Assembly: GCA_965261395.1 (NCBI GenBank)
Contig: OZ253462.1
Location: 4,832,001 to 4,896,000 of the forward strand
Direction: 5' to 3'
From: Candidatus Latescibacterota bacterium
Lineage (GTDB): Bacteria > Latescibacterota > UBA2968 > UBA8231
DNA: 64,000 nucleotides
In this document: piece by piece, positions 39,207-62,834 of the stretch
Numbering within the stretch: the first letter of the stretch is position 1
Layout of the letters: each line of letters begins with the position of its first letter
The notes under the pieces: model-generated
What the model saw: only the letters and a program-made list of their open reading frames with translations
The model's database searches: none
Told to the model about the DNA's origin: nothing
Program-made: the position numbers and the translations under genes

Positions 39207-39210
39207 GCTT

Positions 39211-40389: not shown

Positions 40390-40480
40390 GGAGTAGGAGC
40401 AAGCGCAGCATGGGAACCTCCGTGAAAGAACATGGGTTGGCAAAGATCTATCCGTGAAGAATTCGTTCAACGGGTGGGGG

Positions 40481-42160: not shown

Positions 42161-42229
42161 GGGAAACCTCCGTTGCAAATAAAAAATCTCCGTTGCAAAT
42201 TCAACGCGTAGTTCGTGCGTATCCTACGG

Positions 42230-48253: not shown

Positions 48254-48359
48254 TTTTTACTCTCCTCTTTCGTGATTTCGTGCGTCGAACTGCGAATGGA
48301 CTCTACCTGCCGATCCTAATTTTAATCACGGACTAATGCTACAACTGTCTACCAAAATC

Positions 48360-48418
48360 ACACGTTTGTTATAGAGTAAAATAGACGCCAAAAAAAACAC
48401 GTTTGTCATAAAGTAAAA
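48360..48418. promoter_or_regulatory. 22-bp direct repeat, candidate operator upstream of the adhesin
   Basis: ACACGTTTGTTATAGAGTAAAA (48360) and ACACGTTTGTCATAAAGTAAAA (48397), 20/22 identical, in AT-rich DNA. Confidence 0.55.
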
Positions 48419-48429
48419 ATATTTGATAA

Positions 48430-48685
48430 CGTGAGTTCGGGTTAAGCGGCCTTCTAACAAGAGTCGTGCATCGCTTTTTAGGGCCGATTTTTAGTTTGGT
48501 GGCACTTGCTTATAGACAGGTTTGCAATGGATACGTTTGCAAAAATAGTACAAAAATTCCCTCTGTCAACCAAGAAATGTTGGTTTTGAGCTTCGTGATC
48601 AACTGGAGATCAAAGCGCGCGCTCAATTTGAACCCGAAAAACTAGCCTGTCGAGCTTTTGCCACTCTGCTTATCCCGAACTCACG
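48430..48685. mobile_element. MITE family A, copy 1
   Basis: TIR CGTGAGTTCGGG(T/A)TAAGC at both ends; homologous to 49370..49594 in inverted orientation; no matching target duplication. Confidence 0.85.
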
Positions 48686-48934
48686 TTAATCAACCTGAGC
48701 ATACTGGAGCTAAGCGACAACCAGATTGTCGATATAACCCCGCTGACTTTCTTGACCAACCTGAATTCGCTGCGGCTGTTCAGCAATCGGATTGCAAACT
48801 TGACCCCCCTAATTGTCAACGCTGGATTTGGGAAAGGCGATGAGGTAGGCTTGGGCGGCAATCCCCTCAGCGCCCAAGCCCGCAACCAACAGATCCCCGC
48901 CCTGCAAGCACGAGGCGTCAACGTCCATTACTAA
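48686..48934 (+). pseudogene. LRR gene 3' fragment (2 LRRs plus C-cap)
   Basis: LINLSILELSDNQIVDITPL...NPLSAQARNQQIPALQARGVNVHY*; begins exactly at the MITE end. Confidence 0.85.
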
Positions 48935-49024
48935 ACCCGAACCAGCCTCTGCACAAAGGAAGCCGTGATGAAAATCCAACTCACCGCTTAGTTCCTCACC
49001 CTGCTGGCCTTTAAAGAGAGTGCC

Positions 49025-49303
49025 ATGGTTGTAAGTGCTCATCCTCCACCCCAAGGCCGCTTCACACCAGAGGATGTCGCGTCCCTAACCCGTATCTCGG
49101 CTAGCGGTACGGCCATTCACAGTGTGGCCGGACTAGAACACTTTATAGCCCTGCAACGGCTGGATCTGAGTACCAATGAGATCGCCGATATAACGCCGCT
49201 GGCGGCCTTGACCGAGGTGGATTCGTTGGCTCTGCAGGACAATCAGATTGTGGATGTGACGCCGCTAACTGGCTTGGCCCCTAAAGGGAGCACCATGTTT
49301 TAG
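49025..49303 (+). pseudogene. Internally deleted paralog of the 54680 LRR gene
   Basis: PQGRFTPEDVASLT..SASGTAIHS..GLEHFIALQRLDL is nearly identical to the 54680 protein; the N-terminus and C-cap are missing. Confidence 0.85.
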
Positions 49304-49664
49304 GGAATTATATAGTTGACTAAGCGTAGTAGATTCAATCAAGAGCAATCATAATTTAGCTAAGTATTACGTGAGTTCGGGATAAGCAGAGAGGCAAAAG
49401 CTCGCCGGGCTAGTCTTTCGGGGTCTACTTGAACGCGCGCTTTGGTTTCCAGTTGATCCCCAAGCCCAAAATCACCATGTCTTGGTTGACACCGGGAATG
49501 GTCATCCTATCTTGTGCAAACGCACACATTACAACCGTATGTTACTAAGCGGAAGCACGACTCTAGTTAGAAGGCCGCTTAACCCGAACTCACGTAAGTA
49601 TTAACCTTATCATGGGCTCTCATGTTCAAGAGACCCGCTTAGCTTAGCCAAGTATATAATTCCC
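49303..49664. mobile_element. MITE family B (IS1595-like ends) containing a nested MITE A
   Basis: 23-bp TIR GGGAATTATATAGTTGACTAAGC / GCTTAGCCAAGTATATAATTCCC (21/23) with 8-bp TSD ATGTTTTA (49295-49302, 49665-49672). Confidence 0.88.
49370..49594. mobile_element. MITE family A, copy 2 (nested)
   Basis: Same TIRs as 48430..48685; 9-bp direct repeat TAAGTATTA at 49361-49369 and 49595-49603. Confidence 0.88.
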
Positions 49665-49704
49665 ATGTTTTAAGCCCTCCTTTCCCCTCCCAAGGAGAAT
49701 AGCC

Positions 49705-51159
49705 ATGATGCGCTTCGTCCTTTTTGTCCTAGTCCTTACCCTAGTCGCCTGCTCCGACTCCGCCCCGGTAGCACCTCATCCTGCGGGCAAAATCAACTGT
49801 GCCTTGTGCGCGTTCTTGGGCGACGACGACTACACCATTGCCGATGACGACGAGCAGGACACCGATGATAGCCCCGACAGCTCGTCCGAGACAGAAGCAG
49901 AAGCCGATAGCACTCAGGTGGACTCCTCTGTAACAGAAGCCGATAGCACTCAGGCGGACTCCTCTGTAGTCTCGGCCTCAGATCTAGGGAGTTTCTTCGG
50001 GGACGACCGCTACACCATTGCCGACAAGCTTTTCGCCGACACCAATCTGGAACGGGCCGTGCGACAGGCGCTGAATCGACCACAAGGCTCCCTGACACCA
50101 GAGGACTTTGCTCCTCTGACCACGCTTTCGGCCAGCGATAAAGACATTCGTAGTTTGGCAGGCCTTGAGCACCTTACCGCTCTGCAAGCGCTAAACCTGA
50201 GTGACAACCAGATTGTCGATATAACCCCACTAAACCAAATGACCAACCTGAAACGACTAGACCTGAAGAAAAATGAAATAGCCGATATAACCCCGCTAAC
50301 CAACTTGACGAACCTACTTTGGCTAGACCTGAGCAACAACCAGATCGCCAATCTAACCCCGCTGAACCAAATGACCGATCTGTTAAAGCTGTACCTGAGC
50401 GGCAACCAGATCGCCGATATAACCCCACTGAACCAAATAACCAAACTGTCAGATCTACATCTGAGCTGGAACCAGATTGTCGATATAACCCCGCTGAACC
50501 AAATGACGGATCTGAAAGGACTGGAACTAAGGGGCAACCAGATCGCCGATATAACCCCGCTGGCCGCCTTGGACCTGAACTGGCTAGATCTGAGTTTCAA
50601 TCAGATAGCTGATGTCACCCCACTGAGCGACTTAGAGCTGTTAACCCTAGCGCTAATGGGCAATCAGATCGCCGACCTAACCCCGCTGGCTACTTTGAAA
50701 AGCCTGTATTGGCTAAATGTGGGCAAGAACCAGATCACCGACCTAACCCCACTGATCGCCTTGAAACGCGGCCTGCATACACTGTTTCTGGATAACAATC
50801 AGCTATCCGATCTAACCCCGCTGGCCCAATTGACCGGCCTAGGTTGGCTGTATCTGGAACACAACCAAATAGTTGACCTAACCCCGCTGGCCCAATTAAC
50901 CCGACTAACAGGGCTGCTTCTGAACAACAATCAGATCGTCGATCTAACCCCGCTGACCCCGCTGACGAATCTGAATAGGCTGGATCTACACGACAATCGG
51001 ATTGAAGACCTAGCTCCCCTGATAGCCAATCCCGGCATGGATGAAGGCGTTTCAGGGTTTTTGGATAGGGTAACCTTGCGAGGGAATCCCCTCAACACCC
51101 AATCCCTTACCGAACATATTCCCGCCTTGATAGCAAGGGGCGTCAGCATCGAATACTAA
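49705..51159 (+). CDS. Type-A internalin-like LRR lipoprotein (13 LRRs)
   Basis: LVA-C lipobox, PHPAGK.NCALC motif, acidic linker, FAD.NLE cap, 22-aa LRRs, and a GNPL...IPAL.ARGV..EY cap. Confidence 0.9.
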   Translation: MMRFVLFVLVLTLVACSDSAPVAPHPAGKINCALCAFLGDDDYTIADDDEQDTDDSPDSSSETEAEADSTQVDSSVTEADSTQADSSVVSASDLGSFFGDDRYTIADKLFADTNLERAVRQALNRPQGSLTPEDFAPLTTLSASDKDIRSLAGLEHLTALQALNLSDNQIVDITPLNQMTNLKRLDLKKNEIADITPLTNLTNLLWLDLSNNQIANLTPLNQMTDLLKLYLSGNQIADITPLNQITKLSDLHLSWNQIVDITPLNQMTDLKGLELRGNQIADITPLAALDLNWLDLSFNQIADVTPLSDLELLTLALMGNQIADLTPLATLKSLYWLNVGKNQITDLTPLIALKRGLHTLFLDNNQLSDLTPLAQLTGLGWLYLEHNQIVDLTPLAQLTRLTGLLLNNNQIVDLTPLTPLTNLNRLDLHDNRIEDLAPLIANPGMDEGVSGFLDRVTLRGNPLNTQSLTEHIPALIARGVSIEY

Positions 51160-51197
51160 ATCCGACTCCGTCCCTTTTCTGCGAAAGGAAGATTGCC

Positions 51198-52307
51198 ATG
51201 ATGCGCTTCGTCCTTTTGGTCCTCGTCCTCACCCTAGTCGCCTGCTCCGACCCCGCCCCGGTATCTCCTCACCCTGCGGGCAAAGCCAACTGTGCCTTAT
51301 GCGAGTTCTTGGGCGACGACAACTACACCATTGCCGATGCTGACGAACAGGACACCGATGATAGCCCCGACAGCTCGTCCGAGGCAGAGGCAGAAGCCGA
51401 TAGCACCCAAGCGGACTCCGCAGCAGAAGCCGATAGTACTCAGGCGGACTCCTCTTTGGCCTCGGACTCAGATTTAGGGAGTTTCTTCGGGGATGACCGG
51501 TATACCGTTGCCGACCGGTTTTTAGCCGACGTCAACCTAGAGAGTGCGGTGCGACAGGCGATGGGCCGACCACAAGGCCTTCTTATACCAGAAGAAGTCG
51601 CTTTCCTAACCAGGCTCTCGGCTAGCAATAGAAATATTCAGAGTTTGGTGGGACTTGAGCATTTTGCGGCCCTGCAAAGTCTGCACTTGAATAGAAACCA
51701 GATTGTCGATCTGAACCCACTCAACCAACTAAATAACCTAGGTTGGCTGTATCTGAGCTTCAACCGGATTGACGATCTGAACCCACTCAAACAACTAACT
51801 GATTTGAAGCGGCTGGAACTGAGGGACAACCGGATTGTCGATCTGAACCCACTCAAACAACTAACCGATCTAGAGATACTGCATCTGGAGGACAACCAGA
51901 TTGTCGATATTACCCCGCTAAATCAATTAGCCAACCTAGGTTCGCTAGCTCTGTCGGACAACCAGATTGTCGATCTGAACCCACTGACGCAACTAACCAA
52001 CCTAAGGACGCTGTTTCTGGGCTTCAACCGGATTGTCGATATTACCCCGCTGGCCCAACTGACGGATCTAAGATCGCTGTATCTGTCCGGCAACCGGATT
52101 GACGATCTGAACCCACTCAAACAACTGACCAACCTGCGTTGGCTGTATCTGGACTACAACCAGATTACCGACCTAAGCCCTCTAGTCGCCAACGCCGGCT
52201 TAGGTGAAGGCGATGAAGTGAAATTGAAGGGCAATCCCTTAAGCACCCAAGCCCTCAACGAACAGATCCCCGCCCTGAGAGCAAGAGGCGTCAACGTCAC
52301 CTACTAA
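51198..52307 (+). CDS. Type-A LRR lipoprotein (8 LRRs)
   Basis: Same architecture as 49705. Confidence 0.9.
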   Translation: MMRFVLLVLVLTLVACSDPAPVSPHPAGKANCALCEFLGDDNYTIADADEQDTDDSPDSSSEAEAEADSTQADSAAEADSTQADSSLASDSDLGSFFGDDRYTVADRFLADVNLESAVRQAMGRPQGLLIPEEVAFLTRLSASNRNIQSLVGLEHFAALQSLHLNRNQIVDLNPLNQLNNLGWLYLSFNRIDDLNPLKQLTDLKRLELRDNRIVDLNPLKQLTDLEILHLEDNQIVDITPLNQLANLGSLALSDNQIVDLNPLTQLTNLRTLFLGFNRIVDITPLAQLTDLRSLYLSGNRIDDLNPLKQLTNLRWLYLDYNQITDLSPLVANAGLGEGDEVKLKGNPLSTQALNEQIPALRARGVNVTY

Positions 52308-52435
52308 ACCCGAACGAACCTTTACACCAAGAGACCCGCATAAAAACCCAACTCACCCACCTCCTCGCTCTGCTGACCACCTAAAGGGGGCAACCATATT
52401 TTAATCTCTCCTTTCCCATCCCCAGGAGAATCGCC

Positions 52436-53821
52436 ATGATCCGCCTCGTCCTTTTCGTTCTCGTCCCTACTCTAGTCGCCTGCTCCGGCCCCGCTCCGGT
52501 AGCACCTCATCCTGCGGGTAAAGCCAACTGTGCCTTGTGCGCGTTCTTGGGCGATGACAACTACACCATTGCCGATGCTGACGAGCAGGACACCGATGAT
52601 AGCCCCGACAGTTCTTCCGTGACAGAAGCAGAAGCCGATAGCACTCAGGCGGACCCCGCAGCAGAAACCGATAGTGCACAGGCGGACTCCTCTTTGCTCG
52701 CGGACTCCGGTCTAGGGAGTCTCTTCGGGGACGACCGCTACACCATTGCCGACAAGCTTTTCGCCGACACCAATCTGGAACGTGCCGTGCGACAGGCGCT
52801 GAATCGCCCACAAGGCGCCCTTACGCCAGAGGACTTTGCTCCTCTGACCACGCTTTCGGCCAGCGATAAAGACATTCGTAGTTTGGCAGGTCTTGAGCAC
52901 TTTACGGCCCTGCAAGCGCTAGACCTGAGCGACAACCAGATTGTCGATATTACCCCACTGACCCAACTGACCAACCTGAAACGACTAGACCTGAAGAAAA
53001 ATGAAATAGCCGATCTAACCCCGCTAACCAACTTGACGAACCTACTTTGGCTAGACCTGAGCGGCAACCTGATCGCCGATATAACCCCGCTGAACCAAAT
53101 GACTGAGTTGTCAGAGTTACATCTGAATTTCAACCGGCTTGTCGATTTAACTCCGCTGAACCAAATGACTGAGCTGAAAAGACTGGAACTAAGAGGCAAC
53201 TATATTGCCGACCTAACCCCGCTGGCCGCCTTGGACCTGAACCGGCTAGATCTGAGTTTCAATCAGCTAGCTGATGTCAGCCCACTGGGCGCATTAGAGC
53301 TGTCAACGCTAGAGCTAAGGGGCAACCTGATTGCCGATATAACCCCGCTGGTCACCCTGAAATACCTGTATTGGCTAGATCTGGGCCGCAACTATATTGC
53401 CGACCCAACCCCGCTGATCGCCTTGAAACGCGACCTATATATCCTGTGGCTGGACTCCAACCAGCTATCCGATCTAACTCCATTGAGCCAACTGACTAAC
53501 CTAGATTGGCTGTATCTGGGGGAGAACCAAATAGTTGATCTAACCCCACTGGCCCCACTGACCCAACTAACAGGGCTGCTTCTGAACAACAATCAGATTG
53601 TCGATCTAACCCCACTGACCCCCCTGACGAATCTGAATAGGCTGGATTTGCACAACAATCGGATTAAAAACTTGGTCCCCCTAATCCTCAATCCCGGCAT
53701 AGGTGAAGGCGTTTCGGGGCGGGTGGATAGGCTAACCTTGCAAGGCAATCCCCTTAGCCCCCCAGTCCGCAACACACAGATCCCCATCTTAGAAGAAAGA
53801 GGCGTCCAAGTCGAATACTAA
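52436..53821 (+). CDS. Type-A LRR lipoprotein (12 LRRs), close paralog of 49705
   Basis: Collinear with 49705 except for one missing 22-aa LRR. Confidence 0.9.
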   Translation: MIRLVLFVLVPTLVACSGPAPVAPHPAGKANCALCAFLGDDNYTIADADEQDTDDSPDSSSVTEAEADSTQADPAAETDSAQADSSLLADSGLGSLFGDDRYTIADKLFADTNLERAVRQALNRPQGALTPEDFAPLTTLSASDKDIRSLAGLEHFTALQALDLSDNQIVDITPLTQLTNLKRLDLKKNEIADLTPLTNLTNLLWLDLSGNLIADITPLNQMTELSELHLNFNRLVDLTPLNQMTELKRLELRGNYIADLTPLAALDLNRLDLSFNQLADVSPLGALELSTLELRGNLIADITPLVTLKYLYWLDLGRNYIADPTPLIALKRDLYILWLDSNQLSDLTPLSQLTNLDWLYLGENQIVDLTPLAPLTQLTGLLLNNNQIVDLTPLTPLTNLNRLDLHNNRIKNLVPLILNPGIGEGVSGRVDRLTLQGNPLSPPVRNTQIPILEERGVQVEY

Positions 53822-53864
53822 ACTCGTCGCCACTATCCGTCCCTCTTCTACAAAGGACCTCGCC

Positions 53865-54548
53865 ATGAAAACCCAACGCACGGCCCTATTCTTCGCTCTG
53901 CTCCTTCTGGGGCTGGTAGCACTTGGGACTTCTGCGGCGACGGCGCAGACCGAATTATTCTTTGCCACCGGCGTCGATAGCACCGGCTGGGCACAGGCGC
54001 AAAGTAATGCCGACGGTCACGTGCTGATCGAGTCGCCGCAGTATCCGCGCGGCCTGTGGCTGCACTGCATAGAGCCAGTAGAGGACCGGCTGATTGGCTG
54101 GGAGGGACTAGCGGCCTTTCTACGGGAACGCGAGCAGGGCCAAGCCGGACGAGTCGTCGTGCAGATCGAGTCAAGTACGACCCTTATCACCTCGGCAGTT
54201 GAAGTAGAGAACCCGAAGGCCATAGAAACACTAGTGGCCAACTTGAATACGCTATATCTGCACTACAACCAGATTGTCGATATAACCCCGCTAAACCAAT
54301 TAAACAACTTGGAAACGCTGGATCTATACGGCAACCAGATTGTCGATATAGCTCCGCTGCAACAATTAATCAACCTGAATAGGCTAACTCTGCACGACAA
54401 CCAGATTGTCGACCTAAGCCCTCTAGTCGCCAATACCGGTCTAGGTGAAGGCGATTGGTTGAACTTGGAAAACAACCCCCTCAGCGCCCAAGCCCGCAAC
54501 GAACAGATCCCCGCCCTGCAAGCACGAGGCGTCAACGTCCATTACTAA
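53865..54548 (+). CDS. Type-B secreted LRR protein with two in-frame internal deletions (3 LRRs)
   Basis: SPI signal ATA-Q and the QTELFFATGVDSTG domain; lacks the LVDEAG...IDW block and the LRR N-cap found in its paralogs. Confidence 0.75.
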   Translation: MKTQRTALFFALLLLGLVALGTSAATAQTELFFATGVDSTGWAQAQSNADGHVLIESPQYPRGLWLHCIEPVEDRLIGWEGLAAFLREREQGQAGRVVVQIESSTTLITSAVEVENPKAIETLVANLNTLYLHYNQIVDITPLNQLNNLETLDLYGNQIVDIAPLQQLINLNRLTLHDNQIVDLSPLVANTGLGEGDWLNLENNPLSAQARNEQIPALQARGVNVHY

Positions 54549-54679
54549 ACCCGAACCAGCCTCTGCACAAAGGAAGCCGTGATGAAAATCCAACTCACCG
54601 CTTAGTTACTCACCCTGCTGGCCCTTAAAGAGAGTGCCATGGTTGTAAGTGCTCATCCTCCACCCCAAGGAAAATCGCC

Positions 54680-56359
54680 ATGATTCGTCTCGTCCTTTTT
54701 ATCCTCGTCCTGACCCTCATCGCCTGCTCCGACCCCAAACCGGTAGCACCCCACCCTGCGGGCAAAGCTAACTGTGCCTTGTGCGGGTTCTTTGGCGACG
54801 ACAACTACACCATTGCCGAAGGGCAGGGTGCTCACGAAAGCCCCGAGCCCGACAGCCTGTCCATTGTGTTCGCGGACGCCAATATAGAAAGTGTGGTGCG
54901 GCAAGCACTAGATCGACCCCAAGGCCGCTTCACACCAGAGGACATCGCGTCCCTAACTAGTATCTCAGCTAGCGGTACGGCCATTCACAGTTTGACTGGC
55001 CTGGAGCACTTTATAGCCCTGCAACGGTTGGATCTGAAGAACAACGAGATCGCTGATATAACCCCGTTGGCGGCCTTGGCCGAGGTGGATTCGTTAGAAC
55101 TGAAGGACAACCTGATTGTCGATGTGACGCCGCTAACCGGCTTGACCCGCCTAGCTTGGCTGGAACTAGCCAACAACCTGATTGAAGCCGTGGCACCCTT
55201 GGTTGCTAACACCGGCTTGGGTGAAGGCGATCGAGTCAACTTGGAAAATAACCCTCTCAGCGACCAAGCCCGCAGCGAACAGATCCCTGCCCTACAAGCA
55301 AGAGGTGTCGAGGTTCAGTACACCCTTGTCGACGAGCAGGACACTGATACAAGCTCCGACAGCGCTTCCATTTTATTTGTGGACTCCAATTTGGAGAGGG
55401 TGGTGCGGCGGACGCTGCGCCGACCGCGCGGCCCTCTTACACTAGAGGACGTCGCGTCCCTAGCTGAGCTCTGGGCCCTCGATAGTGATATTCGCAGCTT
55501 AGCGGGCCTTGAACACTCGGCGGCCTTGCAAAGGCTGTATCTGTCCAGCAACCAGATTGTCGGTCTGAACCCGCTGAAACAGTTGACCAACCTAAAGATG
55601 CTGGAGATGCCAGACAACCAGATTATCGATCTGAACCCGCTGAAACAATTAACCAACCTGCGTTTGCTACGTATGTCCAAAAATCAGATAGCCGATGTGG
55701 CCCCGTTGACCAACTTGACCAAGCTGGTTCAGCTCTCTCTGGGAAGCAACCAGATTGTCGATCTGAACCCGCTGAAACAATTAACCAACCTACAAGGGCT
55801 ATATCTGTCCGATAACCAGATTGTCGATCTGAACCCCTTGGAACAATTGAAAAACTTGACATTACTATATCTGTCTGACAACCAGATAGCCGATCTGAAC
55901 CCGCTGGCCGATTTGAAAAACTTGGAAGAGCTATCGCTGGCCAATAACCAGATAGTGGATGTGAAGCCCCTAGCCCAATTGAAAAACTTGAAAGAGCTAT
56001 ACCTGTTCAATAATCAGATAGTGGATGTGAAGCCCCTAGCCCAATTGAAAAACTTGAAAGAATTATCGCTGTTCAATAATCAGATAGTGGATGTGAAGCC
56101 CCTAGCCCAATTGAAAAACTTGCAATACCTATATCTGTACAACAATCAGATAGCCGATGTGGAGCAGCTAACCCGATTGACCAACCTGCAAGTGCTGCGG
56201 CTGGATGATAACCAAATTGAGGACGTAAGTCCCTTGGTCGCCAACCCCGGCCTAGGGAAAGGCGATCGAGTATACTTGGCAAACAACCCCCTCAGCGCCC
56301 AAGCCCGCAACCAACAGATTCCCGCCCTGCAAGCAAGAGGTGTCGACGTCCGCTATTAA
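54680..56359 (+). CDS. Type-A LRR lipoprotein with two tandem capped LRR modules (3 + 11 LRRs)
   Basis: An internal C-cap ...QIPALQARGVEVQY is followed by TLVDEQDTD and a second N-cap FVDSNLE. Confidence 0.9.
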   Translation: MIRLVLFILVLTLIACSDPKPVAPHPAGKANCALCGFFGDDNYTIAEGQGAHESPEPDSLSIVFADANIESVVRQALDRPQGRFTPEDIASLTSISASGTAIHSLTGLEHFIALQRLDLKNNEIADITPLAALAEVDSLELKDNLIVDVTPLTGLTRLAWLELANNLIEAVAPLVANTGLGEGDRVNLENNPLSDQARSEQIPALQARGVEVQYTLVDEQDTDTSSDSASILFVDSNLERVVRRTLRRPRGPLTLEDVASLAELWALDSDIRSLAGLEHSAALQRLYLSSNQIVGLNPLKQLTNLKMLEMPDNQIIDLNPLKQLTNLRLLRMSKNQIADVAPLTNLTKLVQLSLGSNQIVDLNPLKQLTNLQGLYLSDNQIVDLNPLEQLKNLTLLYLSDNQIADLNPLADLKNLEELSLANNQIVDVKPLAQLKNLKELYLFNNQIVDVKPLAQLKNLKELSLFNNQIVDVKPLAQLKNLQYLYLYNNQIADVEQLTRLTNLQVLRLDDNQIEDVSPLVANPGLGKGDRVYLANNPLSAQARNQQIPALQARGVDVRY

Positions 56360-56475
56360 ACGGCACAAAGAAACCCACCATGAGAGCACAACTCATGCTA
56401 CACCTGATCCTGCTAGCTCCCTAAAGGGGAAAGCCATGTCTTAAGCGCTCCTACCCTATCCCAAGGAGAATCGCC

Positions 56476-57912
56476 ATGATACGCCTCGTCCCTTTCATCC
56501 TCGTCCTGACCCTAGTCGCCTGCTCCGACCCCGCACCGGTAGCACCCCACCCTGCGGGCAAAGCCAACTGTGCCTTGTGCGGGTTCTTGGGCGATGAAGA
56601 TTACACCATTGCCGACGGGCAAGGTGCCCATGAAAGTCCCAACCCCGAGAGTCCTCCCGGCTTGTTCAAGGACGCTGAGCTGGAGCGCGTGGTTCGAGAG
56701 GCACTGGACCGACCAGAAGGCTCCCTTACGCCAGAGGACGTCGCTTCCCTAACCCGTATTTCGGCCATCAGTAAAGACATTCGCAGTTTGGCGGGCATCG
56801 AGCATCTTACAGCCCTAAAAAGGCTGAATTTGTTCCGCAACCAGATTACCGATATAAGCCCCCTGGCTAACCTGAACAAACTGGATGAGCTATATCTGGG
56901 TTTCAACCAGATTGTCGATATAAGCCCACTTAACCAATTAAAAAAACTGAAGACGCTAGGTCTGTCCGACAATCAGATTGTCGATATAAGCCCACTCAAC
57001 CAATTAATCAACCTGAATTGGCTATATCTGGGTTTCAACCAGATTGTCGATCTGACCCCGCTCAACCAATTAATCAACCTGAGCATACTGGAGCTAAGCA
57101 ACAACCAGATTGTCGATCTGACCCCGCTCAACCAATTAAACAATCTGATTTCAATACAGCTAAACACAAACCAGATTGCCGACCTGATCCCACTGGCCAA
57201 CCTGAACAACCTGAATAGGCTATATCTGGATTTCAACCAGATTGCCGACCTGACCCCGCTCAACCAATTAAACAATCTGAATAGGCTAGATTTGTGCTGC
57301 AACCAGATTGCCGATCTGACCCCGCTGGCCAATCTGAACAATCTGAATTCGCTATCTCTGTCCGACAACCAGATTACCGATATAACCCCACTAGCCAACC
57401 TGAACAACCTGAAGGCGCTATGGCTGGGCCGCAACCAGATTGCCGATCTGACCCCACTGGCCTTCTTGACCAACCTGAAGGCGCTATCTCTGTACGACAA
57501 CCAGATTACCGGTATAACCCCGCTGGCCTTCTCGACCAACCTGAATGAGCTATGGCTGGGCTTCAACCAGATTGCCGACCTGACCCCACTGGCCTTCTTG
57601 ACCAACCTGAAGGCGCTGCGGCTGCACAGCAATCGGATTGTCGATCTGACCCCACTCAACCAATTAAACAACTTGGAGACGCTATCTCTAGCCAGCAACC
57701 AGATTGTCGATCTGGCCCCGCTGAAACAATTAACTAACTTGAATCTTCTAGCTCTGTACGAGAACCAGATTACCAACCTAAGCCCTCTAGTCGCCAACAC
57801 CGGCTTGGGTAGCGGCGATGAAGTAGATTTGCAAAGCAATCCCCTCAGCGACCAAGCCCGCAACGAACAGATCCCCGCCCTGCAAGCACGAGGCGTCGAC
57901 GTCCCTTACTAA
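56476..57912 (+). CDS. Type-A LRR lipoprotein (15 LRRs)
   Basis: Lipobox, NCALC, FKDAELE cap, 15 LRRs, C-cap. Confidence 0.9.
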   Translation: MIRLVPFILVLTLVACSDPAPVAPHPAGKANCALCGFLGDEDYTIADGQGAHESPNPESPPGLFKDAELERVVREALDRPEGSLTPEDVASLTRISAISKDIRSLAGIEHLTALKRLNLFRNQITDISPLANLNKLDELYLGFNQIVDISPLNQLKKLKTLGLSDNQIVDISPLNQLINLNWLYLGFNQIVDLTPLNQLINLSILELSNNQIVDLTPLNQLNNLISIQLNTNQIADLIPLANLNNLNRLYLDFNQIADLTPLNQLNNLNRLDLCCNQIADLTPLANLNNLNSLSLSDNQITDITPLANLNNLKALWLGRNQIADLTPLAFLTNLKALSLYDNQITGITPLAFSTNLNELWLGFNQIADLTPLAFLTNLKALRLHSNRIVDLTPLNQLNNLETLSLASNQIVDLAPLKQLTNLNLLALYENQITNLSPLVANTGLGSGDEVDLQSNPLSDQARNEQIPALQARGVDVPY

Positions 57913-57946
57913 GTCCGAATCGGCCTCTACCACAAGGGACCCTGGC

Positions 57947-59071
57947 ATGAGAACCCAACGCACGGCCTTCTTCCTCGCTCTGTTCCTTCTGGGGCTGGTA
58001 GCACTTGGGGTCTCTGCGGCGACGGCGCAGACCAAACTCTTTTTTGCCACCGGCGTCGATAGCACCGGCTGGGCACAGGCGCAAAGCAATGCCGACGGCC
58101 ACGTGCTGATCGAGTCGCCGCAGTATCCGCGCGGCCTGTGGCTGCACTTGGTCGATGAAGCGGGGGATGCGCTAACTGCCATTCAAGTCGAATACCAAGG
58201 TCGGCCCGACAGCTTGGTGTCAATTCGCTGCGTCGATCCGGTTGGCGGCGTGCGGGAGACGCTGGTTTGGACCCGGCCCGAGGGCACCCCCTTGAGCTTG
58301 ACGCTGAAGCCCAGCGAATCGACCGACCTGCCGGCGGGGATAGCCTCCATCGACTGGCGCATCGACACGACTGCTGAAGCAGTACTAGAGCCGAAGAAAG
58401 AAACCTGGCGGATCGGCTGGGAGGAAGTGGCGACGTTTCTGCGGGCACGCTGGCAGAGCCAGACCGGGAGGGCCGCCGTGCAGATCAAGTCAAGTAGGAC
58501 CCTTACCACCTTGGTAGTTGAAGTAGAGCACCCGGAGACCATAGAAACACTGGTGGCTCACCTGCAACAGATGTATCGGCCAGCAGGAACCTCGCTCGGA
58601 GAAAGCACCGCTCTATATGTACAAGTGTTTAGGGGCGGCCTTGCTTCTTTACAGGAAGGCGTGATCCTCTATGTCCCTTTGTTCGCAGACGCCAATCTGG
58701 AGCGCGTGGTGCGGGAGGGCCTAGGCCGACCGCAAGGCCCCCTTACATCGGAGGACGTCGCTTCCCTAACCAAGCTCTCAGCCACCGGTAAAGACATTCA
58801 TAGTTTGGCGGGCATTGAGCATCTTATAGCCCTAAAATGGCTGCATCTGGGAGGCAACCAGATTTTCGACATAACCCCACTGCAACAATTAACCAATCTG
58901 ACATGGCTGACGATGAATAACAATCGAATTGAAAACTTGACTCCCCTAGTCGCCAACCCCGGCTTGGGTAGTGGCGATGAAGTAAATTTGCAAAGCAATC
59001 CCCTCAGCGACCAAACCCGTAAAGAACAGATCCCTGCCCTGAAAGCAAGAGGCGTCAACGTCACCTACTAA
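57947..59071 (+). CDS. Type-B secreted LRR protein (2 LRRs)
   Basis: Signal peptide, ~215-aa unknown N-domain, LRR N-cap, LRRs, C-cap. Confidence 0.88.
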   Translation: MRTQRTAFFLALFLLGLVALGVSAATAQTKLFFATGVDSTGWAQAQSNADGHVLIESPQYPRGLWLHLVDEAGDALTAIQVEYQGRPDSLVSIRCVDPVGGVRETLVWTRPEGTPLSLTLKPSESTDLPAGIASIDWRIDTTAEAVLEPKKETWRIGWEEVATFLRARWQSQTGRAAVQIKSSRTLTTLVVEVEHPETIETLVAHLQQMYRPAGTSLGESTALYVQVFRGGLASLQEGVILYVPLFADANLERVVREGLGRPQGPLTSEDVASLTKLSATGKDIHSLAGIEHLIALKWLHLGGNQIFDITPLQQLTNLTWLTMNNNRIENLTPLVANPGLGSGDEVNLQSNPLSDQTRKEQIPALKARGVNVTY

Positions 59072-59101
59072 CACCCGGATCGGCTTCTGCGAAAGGCCCC
59101 T

Positions 59102-60295
59102 ATGAAAACCCAACGTATGGCCTTGCTCCTCACTCTGCTTCTTCCGGGGCTGACGGCACTTGGGGTCTCTGCGGCGACGGCGCAGACCGAATTATTCTTT
59201 GCCACCGGCGTCGATAGCACCGGCCGAGCGCTGGCGCAAAGCAATGCCGACGGCCACGTGCTGATCGAGTCGCCGCAGTATCCGCGCGGCCTGTGGCTGC
59301 ACTTGGTCGATGAAGCGGGGGATGCGCTGGCCGACATTCAAGTTGAATACCAGGGCTGGCCCGACAGCTTGGTGGTCTTGCGTTGCGTTGATCCAGCCGG
59401 CGGCGTGCGGGAGACGTTGATTTGGACCCGGCCCTCGGGCGATCCCCTCCGCTTGACGCTGAAGCCCAAGAAAGTAGGCGATCTGCCAGCGGGGTTAACT
59501 CCAATTGATTGGCAAATCAACCTAAGTGTTGAGCCCCTGCTGGAGCGGGTAAAGAAGGCACGGTTGATCGGCTGGGAGGCGTTGGAGGCCTTCCTGCGGG
59601 AGCGCTGGGCGGGCCAAACTGGTCGAGTCTCCGTGCGGATCAAGTCAAGTACGACCTTTACCATCTTGGCAGTTGAAGTAGATCGCCCGGAGGCCGTAGA
59701 GGCACTGGTGGCTCACCTGCAACAGTTGCATCAGACAGCGGGAGTCTCGCTCGGAGAAAATACCACCCTAATAGAAGTGCAAGTATTTAGGAATCTTGCC
59801 CTGCTAGAAGACGTGATCCACCTCAACCCTTTCTTCTTTGAGGACGCGGCGCTGGCGACGGCAGTGCGAAGGGCCCTAGGCCTAGCGCAGGGCACCTCTT
59901 TTGCCCCCGAGGAAGCCGCTTCCTTGACTAGACTCGGGGCCGGTGATAGCGATATTCACAGTTTGGTGGGTCTCGGGCAATTGGCGGCCTTGCAACGGCT
60001 ATATCTGTCCGAAAACCAAATCGCCGACCTGACCCCACTCGCCCAATTGAAAAACTTGGAAGAGCTATATCTGTCCAACAATCAGATAACCGATGTGACG
60101 CCGCTAACCCGACTGACCAACCTGCAAGTGCTAGGGCTGGATGACAACCAAATTGAGGACTTAAGTCCCTTGGTCGCCAACCCCGGCTTAGGGGAAGGCG
60201 ATCGAATATACTTGGAAAACAACCCTCTTAGCGCCCAAGCCCGCAACGAACAGATTCCCGCCCTAAAAGCAAGAGGCGTCAACGTCACCTACTAA
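59102..60295 (+). CDS. Type-B secreted LRR protein (3 LRRs)
   Basis: Same architecture as 57947. Confidence 0.88.
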   Translation: MKTQRMALLLTLLLPGLTALGVSAATAQTELFFATGVDSTGRALAQSNADGHVLIESPQYPRGLWLHLVDEAGDALADIQVEYQGWPDSLVVLRCVDPAGGVRETLIWTRPSGDPLRLTLKPKKVGDLPAGLTPIDWQINLSVEPLLERVKKARLIGWEALEAFLRERWAGQTGRVSVRIKSSTTFTILAVEVDRPEAVEALVAHLQQLHQTAGVSLGENTTLIEVQVFRNLALLEDVIHLNPFFFEDAALATAVRRALGLAQGTSFAPEEAASLTRLGAGDSDIHSLVGLGQLAALQRLYLSENQIADLTPLAQLKNLEELYLSNNQITDVTPLTRLTNLQVLGLDDNQIEDLSPLVANPGLGEGDRIYLENNPLSAQARNEQIPALKARGVNVTY

Positions 60296-60327
60296 ACTCG
60301 AACCGGCCTCTACGAAAGGCTCCCACC

Positions 60328-61503
60328 ATGAAAACCCAACACACGACCTTGCTCCTCGCTCTGCTCCTTCTGGGGCTGGCAACACTTGGGGGCTCTGCGG
60401 CGACAGCGCAGACCGAACTCTTCTTTGCCACCGGCGTCGATAGCACTGGCTGGGCACAGGCGCAAAGCAATGCCGACGGCCATGTGCTGATCGAGTCGCT
60501 GGAGTATCCGCGCGGCCTGTGGCTGCACTTGGTCGATGAAGCGGGGGATGCGATAGCCGGCCTTCAGGTCGAATACCAAGGCCGGCCCGACAGCTTGGTA
60601 GCGATTCGATGTGTTGATCCGGCCAGAGAGGTGCAGGAGACGCTGGTTTGGACTCGGCCCGAGGGCACCCTATTGCGCTTGATATTGAAGCCCAAAGAAG
60701 CCGCTGACCTGCCAGCGGGGCTGGTCTCCATAGACTGGCAAGTTGATACGAGCGCTGAATCGCTGCTAGAGCCGACCGAGACCCGGCTGATCGGCTGGGA
60801 GGCCGTAGCAGCCTTCCTACAGGAACGCTGGCAGGACCAAGCCGGGCGCGTGGCGGTGCAGTTCGATACCAGTACCTTGGCGGTTGGAGTGGATCACCCA
60901 GAGAACATAGAGACGCTGGTGGCCCACCTGAAACAGGTACATCGGCCAGCAGGAACCTCGCCTGAAGAAAAAACCGCTCTATACGCACAGGTGTTTAGAG
61001 GAGGCTTTGCTTCTTTACAGGAAGGCGTGATCCTCTATTTCCCCTTGTTCGCGGACGCCAATCTAGAGAGCGTGGTGTGGGGGAGACTAGGCCGACCACA
61101 AGGCCGCCTTACACCAGGGGACGTCGCTTCCCTGAAGAGTCCCTCCTTCTACAATAAAGACATTCATAGTTTGGCAGGCATCGAGTATCTTACCGCCCTG
61201 CAACGGCTGGATCTGGGCAGCAACCAAGTAGTCGATCTGGCCCCCCTGACCTCATTGACCAACTTGCAAGAGCTATTTCTGCACCGCAACCAGATAGTTG
61301 ATCTGAGCCCACTAAAACAATTGACCAACCTGCAAGAGCTATGGCTTGGGGACAACCAGATTGAAGACTTGGACCCCTTGATCACTAACGCTGGCTTGGG
61401 GAAAGGCGATTTGGTCAACTTGCAAAACAACCCCCTCAGTGCCCAAGCCCGCAACGAACAGATCCCCGCCCTGAAAGCAAGAGGCGTCATCATCAACTAC
61501 TAA
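60328..61503 (+). CDS. Type-B secreted LRR protein (3 LRRs)
   Basis: Same architecture as 57947. Confidence 0.88.
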   Translation: MKTQHTTLLLALLLLGLATLGGSAATAQTELFFATGVDSTGWAQAQSNADGHVLIESLEYPRGLWLHLVDEAGDAIAGLQVEYQGRPDSLVAIRCVDPAREVQETLVWTRPEGTLLRLILKPKEAADLPAGLVSIDWQVDTSAESLLEPTETRLIGWEAVAAFLQERWQDQAGRVAVQFDTSTLAVGVDHPENIETLVAHLKQVHRPAGTSPEEKTALYAQVFRGGFASLQEGVILYFPLFADANLESVVWGRLGRPQGRLTPGDVASLKSPSFYNKDIHSLAGIEYLTALQRLDLGSNQVVDLAPLTSLTNLQELFLHRNQIVDLSPLKQLTNLQELWLGDNQIEDLDPLITNAGLGKGDLVNLQNNPLSAQARNEQIPALKARGVIINY

Positions 61504-61742
61504 ACCCGACATCTCTCCGTCCCTCTTCAGCGAAAGGACCCCGCCATGAAAGCCCAACTCACCCTGCTTCTTCCCGCCTAGGCCAATGGCGCGCCGGTTT
61601 TTATTTTGGTGCCCAGATGGTATATTCGACATACCAAACGTGTTCGGATGGTATTAGCAGTGGATCGGGATAGCAACAAAGCATTTGAGCGCGTTTCTGG
61701 GTTAAGCGTCGAAGGCAGGTCAACCGAATAAGGAATCTCCTC

Positions 61743-62788
61743 ATGCGCGCGGTGATCCTTCGATCTGGAATCCTCCTAACATTGGCGGCACTTGGAACCT
61801 CTGCGGCGACGGCACAGACCGAACTCTTCTTTGCCACCGGCGTCGATAGCACCGGCTGGGCGCAGGCGCAAAGCAATGCCGACGGCCACGTGCTGATCGA
61901 GTCGTTGGAGTATCCGCGCGGCCTGTGGCTGCACTTGGTCGATGAAGCAGGGGATGCGCTGGCTGGCCTTCAGGTCGAATACCAAGGCCGACCCGACGGC
62001 TTGGTGGCGATTCGCTGCGTCGATCCAGCCAGCGGCGTGCGGGAGACGTTGGTTTGGACCCGGCCCGATGGTACCCCCTTGAGCTTGACGCTGAAGTCCA
62101 GCGAATCGACCGACTTGCCAGCGGGACTCGCCCCCATTAACTGGCAAATCGATCCGAGCGCTGAATTTCTGCTGAAGCCGGTGGAGGAGACCCGGCTGAT
62201 CGGCAGGGGGGCCGTAGCGACGTTTTTGCAGAAGCACTGGCAGCACCAGACCAAGCGAGTCGTCGTGCAGATCAAGTCAAGTGCCCCCGTTACCAACGTG
62301 GCGGTTGAAAGGAGTCGGGCCATAGGGACGCTGATGGCACACCTGCAACAGACGTATCGGCCAGCAGGCACCTCGATCAGAAGAAGAACCGAATTCTACA
62401 TACAAGTATTTAGGATCGGCCCTGATGCTTCTTTACAGGAAGGCGTGATCCTCTATCTCCTCTTGTTCGCGGATGCCAATCTGGAGCTCGTGGTGCGGAA
62501 GGCGCTGGGCCGACCCCAAGTCCGTCTTACATCACTGACACCAGAGGACGTCGCTTCCCAGACTAGGCTCTGGGCCAACGATAAATACATTCATAGCTTG
62601 GCAGGTATCGAGCATCTTACTCCCCTGCAAACTCTGGATTTGAGCAGCAACCGGATTGTCGATCTGACCCCCCAACTAACCTGACCAACCTGCGAAAGCT
62701 ATGGATCAAGGACAACCCCCTCAGCGACCAAGCCCGAAAGGAACAGATCCCCGCCCTAAAATCAAGAGGCGTCACCGTCTACTACTAA
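61743..62788 (+). pseudogene. Type-B LRR gene with 1-nt frameshift
   Basis: The ORF stops at 62684. The C-cap (LTNLRKLWIKDNPLSDQARKEQIPALKSRGVTVYY*) continues in another frame after a C6 run at 62668-62673. Confidence 0.8.
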
Positions 62789-62834
62789 CCCGCCACCGCC
62801 CACACCCGTCCCTCTTCAGCGAAAGGACCCCACC

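What the first reader, a model, noticed from the sequence alone, without database searches (positions are those of the whole stretch)
48686..62788. Tandem, modular LRR receptor repertoire resembling a bacterial VLR-like system
Seen: 12 co-oriented genes or fragments with about 70 LRR units by manual count. All are built from a fixed kit: an N-module (type A lipoprotein or type B secreted domain), an LRR N-cap (FAD.NLE..VR..L.RPQG.LT.EDVA.LT), 2-15 copies of a 66-bp LRR, and a conserved C-cap (LVAN.GLG.GD.V.L..NPLS.QARNEQIPAL.ARGV.V.Y*). The framework codons (AACCAGATTGTCGAT..ACCCC.CT) are nearly invariant. The x positions of LxxLxLxxN vary strongly and are rich in W/Y/F/H/D/R (KRLDLKKN, SDLHLSWN, YWLNVGKN, GWLYLEHN, NRLDLCCN, KALWLGRN, RWLYLDYN). 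Established: these x positions form the concave ligand-binding face in internalins and lamprey VLRs. Inference: a recombination-diversified surface receptor or adhesin library for host, phage or partner recognition, in which conserved DNA frameworks allow cassette exchange.
Basis: partly seen in the sequence, partly recalled or inferred. Interest (0 to 1): 0.88.

Follow-up and report, generated by a model that had tools for sequence, protein, structure and literature searches.

The report
Tandem internalin-like LRR gene array
This is a real cluster of a dozen leucine-rich-repeat surface or secreted protein genes in an uncultured bacterium, which grew and was reshuffled by ordinary duplication and recombination over evolutionary time and shows no sign of a lamprey-style programmed receptor-assembly system.

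Summary
Window 48686-62788 carries 12 co-oriented LRR genes or fragments: 9 with open frames and 3 broken. I count 78 canonical 22-residue internalin-type repeats.

Recombination between paralogs is real on an evolutionary timescale.
- The 5' ~630 nt of g03A and g05A were homogenised, although their 3' parts have separate orthologs in other species.
- The 3' modules do not follow the A/B type (AU p = 0.0008).
- An orthologous B-domain carries 3 LRRs here and 16 unrelated ones in a sister species.
- The locus holds 0 to 12 LRR genes among the 17 genus genomes compared, including G000.

Nothing points to programmed, VLR-like diversification.
- Nine genes have an open frame with their own start codon and signal peptide.
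- Concave-face omega between orthologs is 0.43, no higher than on the convex face.
- No recombinase, reverse transcriptase or deaminase was found among 29 neighbouring proteins scanned.
- Public reads show only SNPs and weak joints.

Best reading: a birth-and-death family of internalin-like, eukaryote-like LRR binding proteins. This is a known kind of system.

The parts
48429..48686 (.). MITE-like element (terminal inverted repeat CGTGAGTTCGGG.TAAGC) that cuts off the 5' part of g01f. No matching target-site duplication around it.
   Evidence: I5 arms 48427-48447 / 48668-48688; 7 blastn hits in the genome, 3 of them at least 80% of full length.
48686..48934 (+). g01f: 3' gene fragment with 2 LRRs and a C-cap. 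No start codon or leader.
   Evidence: translation; C-cap tblastn hit.
49025..49303 (+). g02f: fragment with a partial N-cap and 2 LRRs. It is a paralog of g07A module 1 (units 87% nt identical). Its 5' end is the g07A-type spacer joined directly to the N-cap.
49303..49664 (.). Nested MITE-like insertions in the spacer upstream of g03A. The outer element has 23-nt inverted ends and is flanked by ATGTTTTA on both sides. The inner element is a copy of the 48429 element at 49369-49595, inverted and flanked by TAAGTATTA.
   Evidence: sequence; I1-I4; alignment of spacers.
49705..51159 (+). g03A: type A lipoprotein with acidic linker, N-cap, 13 LRRs and a 46-aa C-cap.
   Evidence: Its ortholog is G002_A13.
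51198..52307 (+). g04A: type A with 8 LRRs. The gap to g03A is 38 nt.
   Evidence: Its ortholog is G002_A8.
52436..53821 (+). g05A: type A with 12 LRRs. The 3' two thirds are orthologous to G010_A9 and G009_A10. The 5' ~630 nt were converted with g03A.
53865..54548 (+). g06B: type B with an internally deleted B-domain, no N-cap, and 3 LRRs.
54680..56359 (+). g07A: type A leader followed by two complete N-cap/LRR/C-cap modules (3 and 11 LRRs) in one frame, i.e. a fusion of two genes.
   Evidence: two N-caps, two C-caps.
56476..57912 (+). g08A: type A with 15 LRRs and recent internal unit duplications (units 4/7 93%, units 10/12 92%).
57947..59071 (+). g09B: type B with 2 LRRs. Its C-cap is 90% nt identical to that of g08A.
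59102..60295 (+). g10B: type B with 3 LRRs. The last ~264 nt are 82-94% identical to the 3' end of g07A.
   Evidence: AF2 model pLDDT 87.2.
60328..61503 (+). g11B: type B with 3 LRRs. Its B-domain is 92-100% nt identical to a 16-LRR gene of genus genome G022.
61743..62788 (+). g12B: type B, broken. The frame stops after 1 LRR at 62684. A shortened C-cap continues in another frame to 62788.
   Evidence: three-frame translation; C-cap hit at window 62696-62785.
62835..64000 (+). Conserved downstream gene encoding VIT + vWA + a T9SS-type C-terminal sorting domain (768 aa in the genome). Its upstream spacer is homologous to the short spacers inside the array.

Best explanation
The region is a germline-encoded multigene family of exported, internalin-type LRR binding proteins, of the 'eukaryote-like protein' kind. 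It sits at a variable spot between conserved housekeeping genes and a VIT-vWA surface-protein gene.

Type A genes encode lipoproteins that carry the LRR solenoid on a long acidic linker. Type B genes encode Sec-exported proteins with a lineage-restricted N-terminal domain.

Shown here: the array grew and changes through
- tandem gene duplication,
- gain and loss of 66-nt units inside genes,
- ectopic recombination or gene conversion between paralogs, using the shared framework, cap and spacer DNA,
- gene fusion, truncation and MITE insertion.

Inferred, not shown: each paralog has its own concave face, which is kept between species. The family therefore most likely works as a fixed panel of different binding specificities for extracellular or host ligands. 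The genes are probably all expressed, as several short polycistronic groups.
For: Anatomy:
- Complete frames with a lipobox or Sec leader, an SD-like AGGAG/AAAGG sequence before the ATG, and gaps of 30-43 nt or 116-131 nt.
- LRR_4 and LRR_8 hits.
- The AF2 model of g10B has pLDDT 87.2, with beta-strands at LRR positions 3-5. Foldseek matches it to InlB and InlA at rmsd 1.7 A over about 152 columns, 30-37% identity.

Growth by duplication:
- Collinear paralogs g03A/g05A and g02f/g07A. Intragenic unit copies at 90-93% identity.
- The spacers before g02f, g05A, g07A and g08A contain a relic of the RBS, ATG and first signal-peptide codons of a B/VIT-type gene.

Recombination:
- The 3' part of g05A groups with G010_A9 + G009_A10 (support 100/100), and g03A + g05A is rejected there (p-AU 6e-8). 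In the 5' 237 columns g03A + g05A are sisters (92/95), and the orthology grouping is rejected (p-AU 0.0225).
- Type B genes are not one clade in the last-LRR + C-cap tract (p-AU 0.0008).
- g07A and g10B are 82-94% identical over the last ~264 nt, then 55% or less.
- g11B versus the G022 gene: B-domain 92-100% nt, N-cap 75-78%, LRRs at background identity; 3 versus 16 units.

Turnover:
- The flanks are 89-95% identical to 8 genus genomes.
- Across 17 genus genomes including G000, the space between the flanks holds 0 to 12 LRR genes.

Selection:
- Pooled omega over 3 ortholog pairs: concave 0.43, convex 0.56, scaffold 0.19, non-LRR 0.28.

Kind already described (passages read):
- LRR (PF12799) proteins with signal peptides are abundant in Poribacteria (PMC3909097).
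- LRR ELPs are reported in sponge-associated Latescibacterota MAGs (PMC12993501).
- Recombinant internalin genes are known: inlH is the 5' end of inlC2 joined to the 3' end of inlD (PMC3977354).
Against: - No ligand, expression or localisation data exist. The binding function and surface exposure rest on analogy with internalins.
- The habitat and taxon are inferred only from the nearest named relatives.
- The omega figures are class averages from three type A ortholog pairs. Single positively selected sites could hide beneath them. The type B LRR modules have no orthologs to test.
- The 5' partition for the AU test was chosen after I had seen the identity profile, so p = 0.0225 is optimistic.
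- The read evidence comes from short unitigs and about 2-5x raw Hi-C reads. These cannot exclude rare structural variants.
- The array's GC3 of 0.60-0.68, against 0.78-0.81 in housekeeping neighbours, is unexplained. It could point to foreign origin or low expression.
Confidence: 0.78

Rival explanations
1. A programmed diversification system, either VLR-like or like bacterial antigenic variation. In this reading, cassettes are copied into an expression site, or the genes are actively reshuffled within a population.
For: Shared framework, cap and spacer DNA offers homology for exchange. Exchange did happen in evolution. Two promoterless fragments exist (g01f, g02f). There are a few joints in public runs (table 5).
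Against: - Nine genes have open frames, each with its own start codon and signal peptide.
- The two fragments are flanked by MITEs and deletion scars, which looks like decay and not stored cassettes.
- No recombinase, reverse transcriptase or deaminase domain was found among the 29 proteins scanned.
- All 8 listed joints have at most 39 letters on the shorter side or carry unrelated letters between the sides. The tool warns that such joints often come from repeats or other organisms.
- All 16 listed unitig pieces of runs X2 and X5 match with 0 differences (table 8).
- The exchanges seen are as old as species splits (dS 0.14-0.39).
Confidence: 0.04
2. An arms-race receptor family under diversifying selection on the concave face (host immunity, phage or competitor recognition), without any special mechanism.
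For: The concave columns are the most diverse, at 3.1-3.4 bits, and are rich in aromatic and charged residues. The LRR genes are less conserved than the flanks: 86.5-89.5% against 91.5-93.5% nt identity to the same genomes. Gene content at the locus turns over quickly.
Against: - Concave omega is 0.43 (42 non-synonymous of 61 changes, against 82% expected under neutrality; p = 0.011).
- It is not higher than the convex omega of 0.56 (Fisher p = 0.86).
- The paralog pair g03A/g05A gives 0.64 against 0.56.
- The all-unit comparison is saturated and cannot show selection.
- Of the 30 genic strain-level SNPs I classified (taken from the 40 differences listed; 168 more were not shown), 17 are synonymous and 13 non-synonymous. 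Only 5 of the 13 lie at concave positions.
- No hits to PADLOC defence models for the 6 proteins scanned.
Confidence: 0.1
3. Accessory subunits of the neighbouring VIT-vWA surface protein. In this reading the LRR proteins are adaptors for one complex, not independent binders.
For: - In 14 of the 16 other genus loci I fetched, an LRR-family gene or remnant ends within about 300 nt upstream of the VIT-vWA gene. G020 and G008 have none there.
- The VIT upstream spacer is homologous to the short spacers inside the array.
- No terminator-like excess in the array: 13 found, 16.8 expected.
Against: - G020 has the VIT-vWA gene with no LRR gene beside it.
- G008 has its LRR genes about 68 kb away from the VIT-vWA gene.
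- Copy number ranges from 0 to 12.
- No binding test was run.
Confidence: 0.08
4. An assembly artefact: a repeat array mis-built by the assembler.
For: The region is repetitive. In one search, 40 to 66 of the records laid from the three contig runs fit two places in the region.
Against: - Six runs from 3 studies hold 0.79-0.94 of the sampled 31-mers. The best holder may be the source sample, but the others come from different studies.
- All 30 depth bins are covered in X1 and X2.
- Units average only 61% nt identity, so they are not easily collapsed.
- Orthologs of g03A, g04A and g05A exist in other genomes, in the same order.
Confidence: 0.01

Closest known systems
Listeria internalin multigene family (InlA, InlB, InlC2/InlH, InlF and others)
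   Same: - 22-residue LxxLxLxxNxIxDIxPL repeats with a helical N-cap. Foldseek gives rmsd 1.7 A and 30-37% identity to InlB and InlA.
- The best NCBIfam hits are internalin_A and internalin_H.
- Many paralogs per genome, some in tandem clusters, with between 9 and 28 genes among Listeria genomes (PMC3019230, passages).
- A documented recombinant gene: inlH is the 5' end of inlC2 joined to the 3' end of inlD (PMC3977354, passage).
- That paper also describes a lipoprotein-type internalin, Lmo0460.
   Different: - There is no Ig-like inter-repeat domain after the LRRs. Instead there is a 41-46-aa cap made of a last repeat, a helix and a strand.
- There are no LPXTG, GW or B repeats.
- NCBIfam scores of 62-251 bits are far below the 1050-1600-bit cut-offs.
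- The host lineage and the N-terminal modules are different.
Eukaryote-like LRR proteins of sponge-associated Poribacteria and Latescibacterota
   Same: - LRR_4 (PF12799) proteins with signal peptides are reported as abundant in these lineages. They occur next to fn3, cadherin and Por-tail proteins (PMC3909097, passages; PMC12993501, passages).
- The window has the same neighbours: a 2007-aa fn3/cadherin protein and a VIT-vWA protein with a T9SS-type tail.
- The nearest named relatives of the B-type gene are Latescibacterota and Poribacteria MAGs.
   Different: - Those papers count domains. In the passages I read they do not describe tandem arrays, the module kit or recombination.
- The window's own habitat is not established.
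Lamprey and hagfish variable lymphocyte receptors (VLR)
   Same: LRR solenoid with N- and C-caps. The variable residues are on the concave beta-sheet. Modules are bounded by conserved framework DNA. These properties of VLRs are recalled, not tested here.
   Different: - The nine intact genes are complete, not incomplete germline genes with silent cassettes.
- The caps lack cysteine clusters.
- No deaminase was found among the 29 neighbouring proteins scanned.
- No clonal mosaics were seen in reads.
- The exchanges happened on a species-level timescale.
LRR gene-family expansions in other host-associated bacteria, such as Leptospira LIC_11051-type LRR proteins and Parachlamydiaceae LRR families
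   Same: - Lineage-specific expansion of LRR genes.
- Four of the 6 proteins scanned show weak NCBIfam hits to the LIC_11051 fibronectin-binding family, at 29-85 bits.
- The Parachlamydiaceae expansion paper (PMC4209131) was seen only in a search listing and the start of its abstract.
   Different: Scores are far below the 1000-bit cut-off. The repeat subtype and domain partners differ. No F-box, BTB or similar effector domain is present here.

Membership tests
Leucine-rich repeat superfamily (Pfam LRR_4 / LRR_8) | Tandem 20-29-residue repeats with the LxxLxLxxN/CxL core, scoring above Pfam's gathering cut-off | tested here: met
   LRR_4 is above 27 bits in 8 of 10 proteins. g09B scores 25.6 and g12B 17.8, both below. 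There are 78 anchored units.
Leucine-rich repeat superfamily (Pfam LRR_4 / LRR_8) | Curved solenoid with a parallel beta-sheet on the concave side | tested here: met
   AF2 model of g10B: pLDDT 96-98 in the LRR part, with strands at repeat positions 3-5. Foldseek finds 121 PDB matches at E <= 0.001, and the listed top matches are almost all LRR proteins. This is a prediction, not a solved structure.
Listeria-type internalins | Helical N-cap followed by 22-residue repeats | tested here: met
   rmsd 1.7 A over about 152 columns to InlB (1h6t, 7pv9). 72 of 78 units have 22 residues.
Listeria-type internalins | Ig-like inter-repeat (IR) domain fused to the C-terminal end of the LRR region (definition recalled) | tested here: not met
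   The proteins end 41-46 residues after the last full repeat. DSSP shows one strand, one helix and one strand there.
Listeria-type internalins | Cell-wall or surface anchoring by LPXTG, GW or WxL modules (definition recalled); NCBIfam internalin models above cut-off | tested here: not met
   No such modules appear in the translations. The internalin_A and internalin_H models score 62-251 bits against cut-offs of 1050-1600.
VLR-type somatic assembly system | One incomplete expressed gene plus many silent partial LRR cassettes | tested here: not met
   There are 9 open frames, each with a start codon, leader and stop. Only 3 are broken copies, and two of those are MITE-flanked remnants.
VLR-type somatic assembly system | Dedicated AID/APOBEC-like deaminase or another diversifying enzyme linked to the locus | tested here: inconclusive
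   None was found among the 29 proteins scanned with Pfam in the window and 8 kb downstream. The rest of the genome was not searched for such enzymes.
VLR-type somatic assembly system | Different assembled mosaics in different cells of one population | tested here: inconclusive
   Only weak joints were seen (shorter side 39 letters or fewer). The listed pieces of runs X2 and X5 are identical to the window. Unitigs drop rare variants and the raw-read depth was only about 2-5x.
Bacterial gene-conversion antigenic variation (pilE/pilS, vlsE type) or DGR | Expression site plus promoterless donor cassettes, or a reverse transcriptase with a template/variable repeat pair | tested here: not met
   The genes are complete. 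No RVT domain appears among the 29 proteins scanned. The most similar repeats are collinear paralogs, not a template/variable pair.
Eukaryote-like proteins (ELPs) of sponge symbionts | Bacterial protein carrying a repeat domain typical of eukaryotes (ANK, LRR, TPR, fn3 and others), usually with an export signal | tested here: met
   LRR domains. Lipobox or Sec leaders read from the translations. No signal-peptide predictor was available.
Eukaryote-like proteins (ELPs) of sponge symbionts | The organism lives in a sponge | not testable with these tools
   Only indirect evidence: the nearest named relatives are Latescibacterota and Poribacteria MAGs. Run and organism names are coded.

The most novel reading that the evidence does not exclude
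The spot next to the VIT-vWA gene may be a recombination hot spot. There, LRR modules would be swapped between a membrane-tethered scaffold (type A) and a secreted scaffold (type B) often enough that one natural population carries several array versions. That would give the bacterium population-level variation in what it binds: a bacterial, germline counterpart of a shuffled LRR repertoire. Unitig-level read data cannot exclude this.
Probability: 0.07. Interest if true: 0.8.

Novelty: new member of a known kind. Interest (0 to 1): 0.33.

Why it matters
The array is one of the larger tandem sets of internalin-like genes I could find in this lineage. It holds 11 of the genome's 19 LRR-bearing frames and 75 of its 145 strict-motif units.

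It also preserves an unusually readable record of how such families evolve:
- dated gene conversion between old paralogs,
- a 3-versus-16-repeat replacement behind a nearly identical N-domain,
- a two-module fusion,
- MITE-mediated decay,
- spacer relics left by the duplication breakpoints.

For people who study uncultured, probably host-associated bacteria, it offers a defined panel of about nine binding proteins whose concave faces are conserved between species. These are good candidates for ligand fishing.

The B-domain is restricted to 68 clusters among 1.84 billion representative proteins and has no convincing structural match. It is a small unknown worth a structure.

The array does not open a new principle of receptor diversification.

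Tried and rejected
- **Per-codon dN/dS over all pairs of the 60 internal units.** pN is 0.56-0.68 at the x positions, so the comparison is saturated. NG86 also inflates pS at twofold codons. I rejected it as a test of selection and replaced it with ortholog pairs.
- **ESM Atlas search with the B-domain.** No usable hit.
- **Foldseek of the whole g10B model.** The result is dominated by the LRR part, so it says nothing about the B-domain.
- **B-domain folded alone.** pLDDT was only 69.5 and there was no PDB match at E <= 0.001; the best was 0.064. The fold stays unassigned.
- **Rfam on 48000-63000 at E <= 0.1.** Zero matches.
- **Promoter and terminator scans.** Both gave fewer sites than the shuffles: 4 against 8.1, and 13 against 16.8. 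The operon structure therefore stays inference.
- **PADLOC.** Zero hits for 6 proteins.
- **Read joints.** Joints such as 50688>60103, 57215>57366, 61778>63083 and 48571>49543 on opposite strands have 21-39 letters on the shorter side, and several carry unrelated letters in between. I do not count them as variants.
- **Check of X1 variants against the paralog.** I asked whether the X1 run's variants in g03A and g05A match the paralog's base. Six of 20 did, which is too few to call conversion.
- **The search for homologous proteins, the listing of cluster members and a metagenome-contig scan.** Not used.
- **Literature.** Searches for a description of tandem LRR arrays or recombination in sponge-symbiont LRR genes found domain counts only. 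Supplements were closed and may hold gene lists.

Full report
**What is there**

Between 48686 and 62788, all on the + strand, lie twelve LRR genes or fragments. Nine have open frames: g03A, g04A, g05A, g06B, g07A, g08A, g09B, g10B and g11B. Three are broken.
- g01f is a 3' piece cut off by a MITE-like element.
- g02f is an N-cap plus two repeats.
- g12B stops after one repeat, and its shortened C-cap runs on in another frame to 62788.

I count 78 canonical LxxLxLxxNxI units: 72 of 22 residues, 4 of 21 and 2 of 23. TRF sees periods of 66, 132 and 198 nt at 70-82% matches. Pfam LRR_4 is above its cut-off in 8 of 10 proteins.

- Type A starts with a lipobox (LVAC|S), then a conserved PVAPHPAGKANCALC stretch and an acidic linker.
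- Type B starts with a Sec-type leader and a ~215-residue domain with no Pfam hit.
- g07A holds two complete N-cap/LRR/C-cap modules in one frame. g06B has an internally deleted B-domain.

The 23-base motif is exact in 9 of 78 units and within three mismatches in 47 of 78, with no matches in 100 shuffles.

**Fold and family**

AlphaFold2 on g10B, using 33 aligned relatives, gave pLDDT 87.2. Strands lie at repeat positions 3-5. Foldseek puts the N-cap and LRR part on Listeria InlB and InlA at rmsd 1.7 A and 30-37% identity. The best NCBIfam hits are internalin_A and internalin_H, but at 62-251 bits against cut-offs of 1050-1600.

The proteins end 41-46 residues after the last repeat. They therefore lack the internalin inter-repeat domain and the usual anchors. 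They work like internalin LRR domains but are not members of that family.

The B-domain has only 68 relatives at E <= 0.001 among 1.84 billion representative proteins. It gave no Atlas hit. Folded alone (pLDDT 69.5), it has no PDB match better than E = 0.064.

**Setting**

The genome is one 6.55-Mb contig. The nearest named relatives of the B-type gene are a Latescibacterota MAG (48% identity including the B-domain) and, for the LRR part, Poribacteria MAGs and others. The habitat is not established.

Neighbours of the array:
- Upstream, on the other strand: an LRR protein with a weak leishmanolysin-like match, and a 2007-aa fn3/cadherin protein with a FlgD_ig tail.
- Downstream: a VIT-vWA protein with a T9SS-type tail, then an ABC ATPase, UvrB and DnaK.

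None of the 29 proteins scanned in or next to the window is a recombinase, reverse transcriptase or deaminase. PADLOC gave nothing, and neither did Rfam.

This array holds 11 of the genome's 19 frames with at least two strict-motif repeats, and 75 of its 145 such units.

**Is the variety at the x positions diversifying selection?**

Across all units the x positions are the most diverse columns, at 3.1-3.4 bits. The all-pairs comparison is saturated, with pN 0.56-0.68, so it only shows that the units are old.

The informative comparison is between orthologs from other species of the genus: g03A with G002_A13, g05A with G010_A9, and g04A with G002_A8. Pooled results:

| Position class | omega |
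|---|---|
| Concave (2, 3, 5, 7, 8) | 0.43 |
| Convex variable | 0.56 |
| Scaffold | 0.19 |
| Non-LRR parts | 0.28 |

- At the concave positions, 42 of 61 changes are non-synonymous, against 82% expected under neutrality (p = 0.011).
- Concave versus convex is not significant (Fisher p = 0.86).
- The paralog pair g03A/g05A gives 0.64 against 0.56.

The concave faces differ between paralogs but are kept between species. That pattern fits a panel of fixed specificities.

**Is there recombination?**

Yes, on an evolutionary timescale. Units do not cluster strictly by gene: the nearest neighbour is in the same gene for 22 of 78 units (permutation mean 9.8). The cross-gene likenesses are mostly collinear.

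- *Case 1.* In the 3' two thirds, g03A is closest to G002_A13 (82-97% per window) and g05A to G010_A9 and G009_A10 (91-94%). In the first ~630 nt, g03A and g05A are 86-99% alike, closer than either is to its ortholog. The trees agree.
  - In the 3' part, g05A groups with G010_A9 + G009_A10 (support 100/100), and g03A + g05A is rejected (p-AU 6e-8).
  - In the 5' part (237 columns), g03A + g05A are sisters (92/95), and the orthology grouping is rejected (p-AU 0.0225).
  - That partition was chosen after I had seen the identity profile, so its p-value is optimistic.
- *Case 2.* In the last-repeat plus C-cap tract, the type B genes are not one clade (p-AU 0.0008; the group was defined by N-module type before the tree). 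g07A and g10B share 82-94% identity over the last ~264 nt and 55% or less upstream. g08A and g09B share 82-94% over the last ~130 nt.
- *Case 3.* The B-domain of g11B is 92-100% nt identical to a gene of genus genome G022. Identity falls to 75-78% in the N-cap and to background in the repeats. g11B has 3 repeats and the G022 gene has 16.

**How the array grew**

The window flanks (36005-40391 and 62708-64000) are 89-95% identical to eight genus genomes. Across the 17 genus genomes compared, including G000, the space between the flanks holds from 0 LRR genes (G020) through 1-5 to 12 here. In G000 it also holds the fn3 giant and the LRR/M8-like gene.

Gaps inside the array are of two kinds.
- Short gaps of 30-43 nt, homologous to the spacer before the VIT-vWA gene.
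- Long gaps of 116-131 nt before g05A, g07A and g08A, and also before g02f. These contain a relic of the RBS, the ATG and the first signal-peptide codons of a B/VIT-type gene. I read them as scars of the duplication breakpoints.

Inside genes, recent unit copies reach 90-93% identity: g07A units 10-12, g08A units 4/7 and 10/12. g03A has one unit more than g05A.

The left end of the array is decaying. Two inverted copies of a MITE-like element bracket g01f and g02f. The left copy has no matching target duplication. The copy at 49369-49595 sits inside a second MITE-like element, which itself lies in the g03A spacer.

**Variation among strains**

Six public runs from three studies hold 0.79-0.94 of the sampled words. 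The best holder may be the source sample.

I laid four runs on 46000-64000.
- All 16 listed pieces of runs X2 and X5 match with no differences.
- Run X1 differs by point changes.
- The 8 listed joints all have short sides (21-39 letters) or foreign letters in between, and I do not accept them as variants.
- The tool listed 40 differences and did not show 168 more.

This gives no support for active reshuffling. Unitigs and 2-5x raw reads cannot exclude rare variants.

**Verdict**

The closest known systems are the Listeria internalin family, which includes a documented recombinant gene (PMC3977354, passage) and 9-28 genes per genome (PMC3019230, passages), and the LRR 'eukaryote-like proteins' reported from Poribacteria and sponge-associated Latescibacterota (PMC3909097 and PMC12993501, passages).

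Noticed in passing
window 48429-48686 and 49369-49595 (inverted copy); outer element 49303-49664: These are MITE-like elements with the terminal inverted repeat CGTGAGTTCGGG.TAAGC. There are 7 blastn hits in the genome, 3 near full length. The 49369 copy is flanked by TAAGTATTA on both sides and sits inside a second MITE-like element, which is flanked by ATGTTTTA. The 48429 copy has no matching flank, which suggests a MITE-mediated rearrangement removed the 5' part of g01f.
   Followed up: partly
window 40481-42178 (-): A 565-aa protein with internalin-type LRRs and a weak leishmanolysin (Peptidase_M8) match in its C-terminal half (E = 3.7e-5, above the cut-off by 2 bits). It has many paralogs in the genus, with 31 matches in genome G046.
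   Followed up: partly
window 42230-48253 (-): A 2007-aa protein of fn3 and cadherin-like repeats with a FlgD_ig / T9SS-like tail. It contains long, nearly identical internal repeats: the antisense ORFs at 45926-46330 and 46805-47209 are identical in sequence, 879 nt apart.
   Followed up: no
window 52308-52435, 54549-54679, 56360-56475, 48935-49024: The long spacers before type A genes contain a decayed copy of the RBS, the ATG and the first signal-peptide codons of a B/VIT-type gene. This is followed by a conserved CCCTAAAGGGAG..CCATGTTTTAAG element of unknown role. There is no Rfam match.
   Followed up: partly
window 48000-62800: The whole array has lower GC (0.50-0.59 against 0.60-0.65) and lower GC3 (0.60-0.68 against 0.78-0.81 in housekeeping neighbours). 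At framework positions it prefers ATT and GAT, where the neighbours prefer ATC and GAC. Foreign origin, low expression and shared descent of the units are all possible explanations.
   Followed up: partly
window 62835-64000 and L060 835-3141: The VIT-vWA protein with a T9SS-type sorting tail is 87-97% identical in 18 of 30 other genus genomes. In 14 of the 16 loci fetched, an LRR-family gene or remnant lies directly upstream of it.
   Followed up: partly
window 15033-16559 (-): A protein combining a PhyH (phytanoyl-CoA dioxygenase) domain with HEAT repeats. PhyH-family proteins are reported as the most abundant domain family in Poribacteria (PMC3909097, abstract).
   Followed up: no
window 17444-20143, 24930-27614, 23891-24763, 30289-31425 (-): Four sizeable ORFs (899, 894, 290 and 378 aa) have no Pfam hit at E <= 1e-5. 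Two neighbours (21923-23800 and 27627-29645) carry CHU_C / FlgD_ig T9SS-type tails.
   Followed up: no
G000 genome 5866981-5894410 (-), outside the window: Two adjacent giant open frames (4737 and 4422 aa) carry 18 and 14 internalin-type repeats, with C-cap-like tblastn hits.
   Followed up: no
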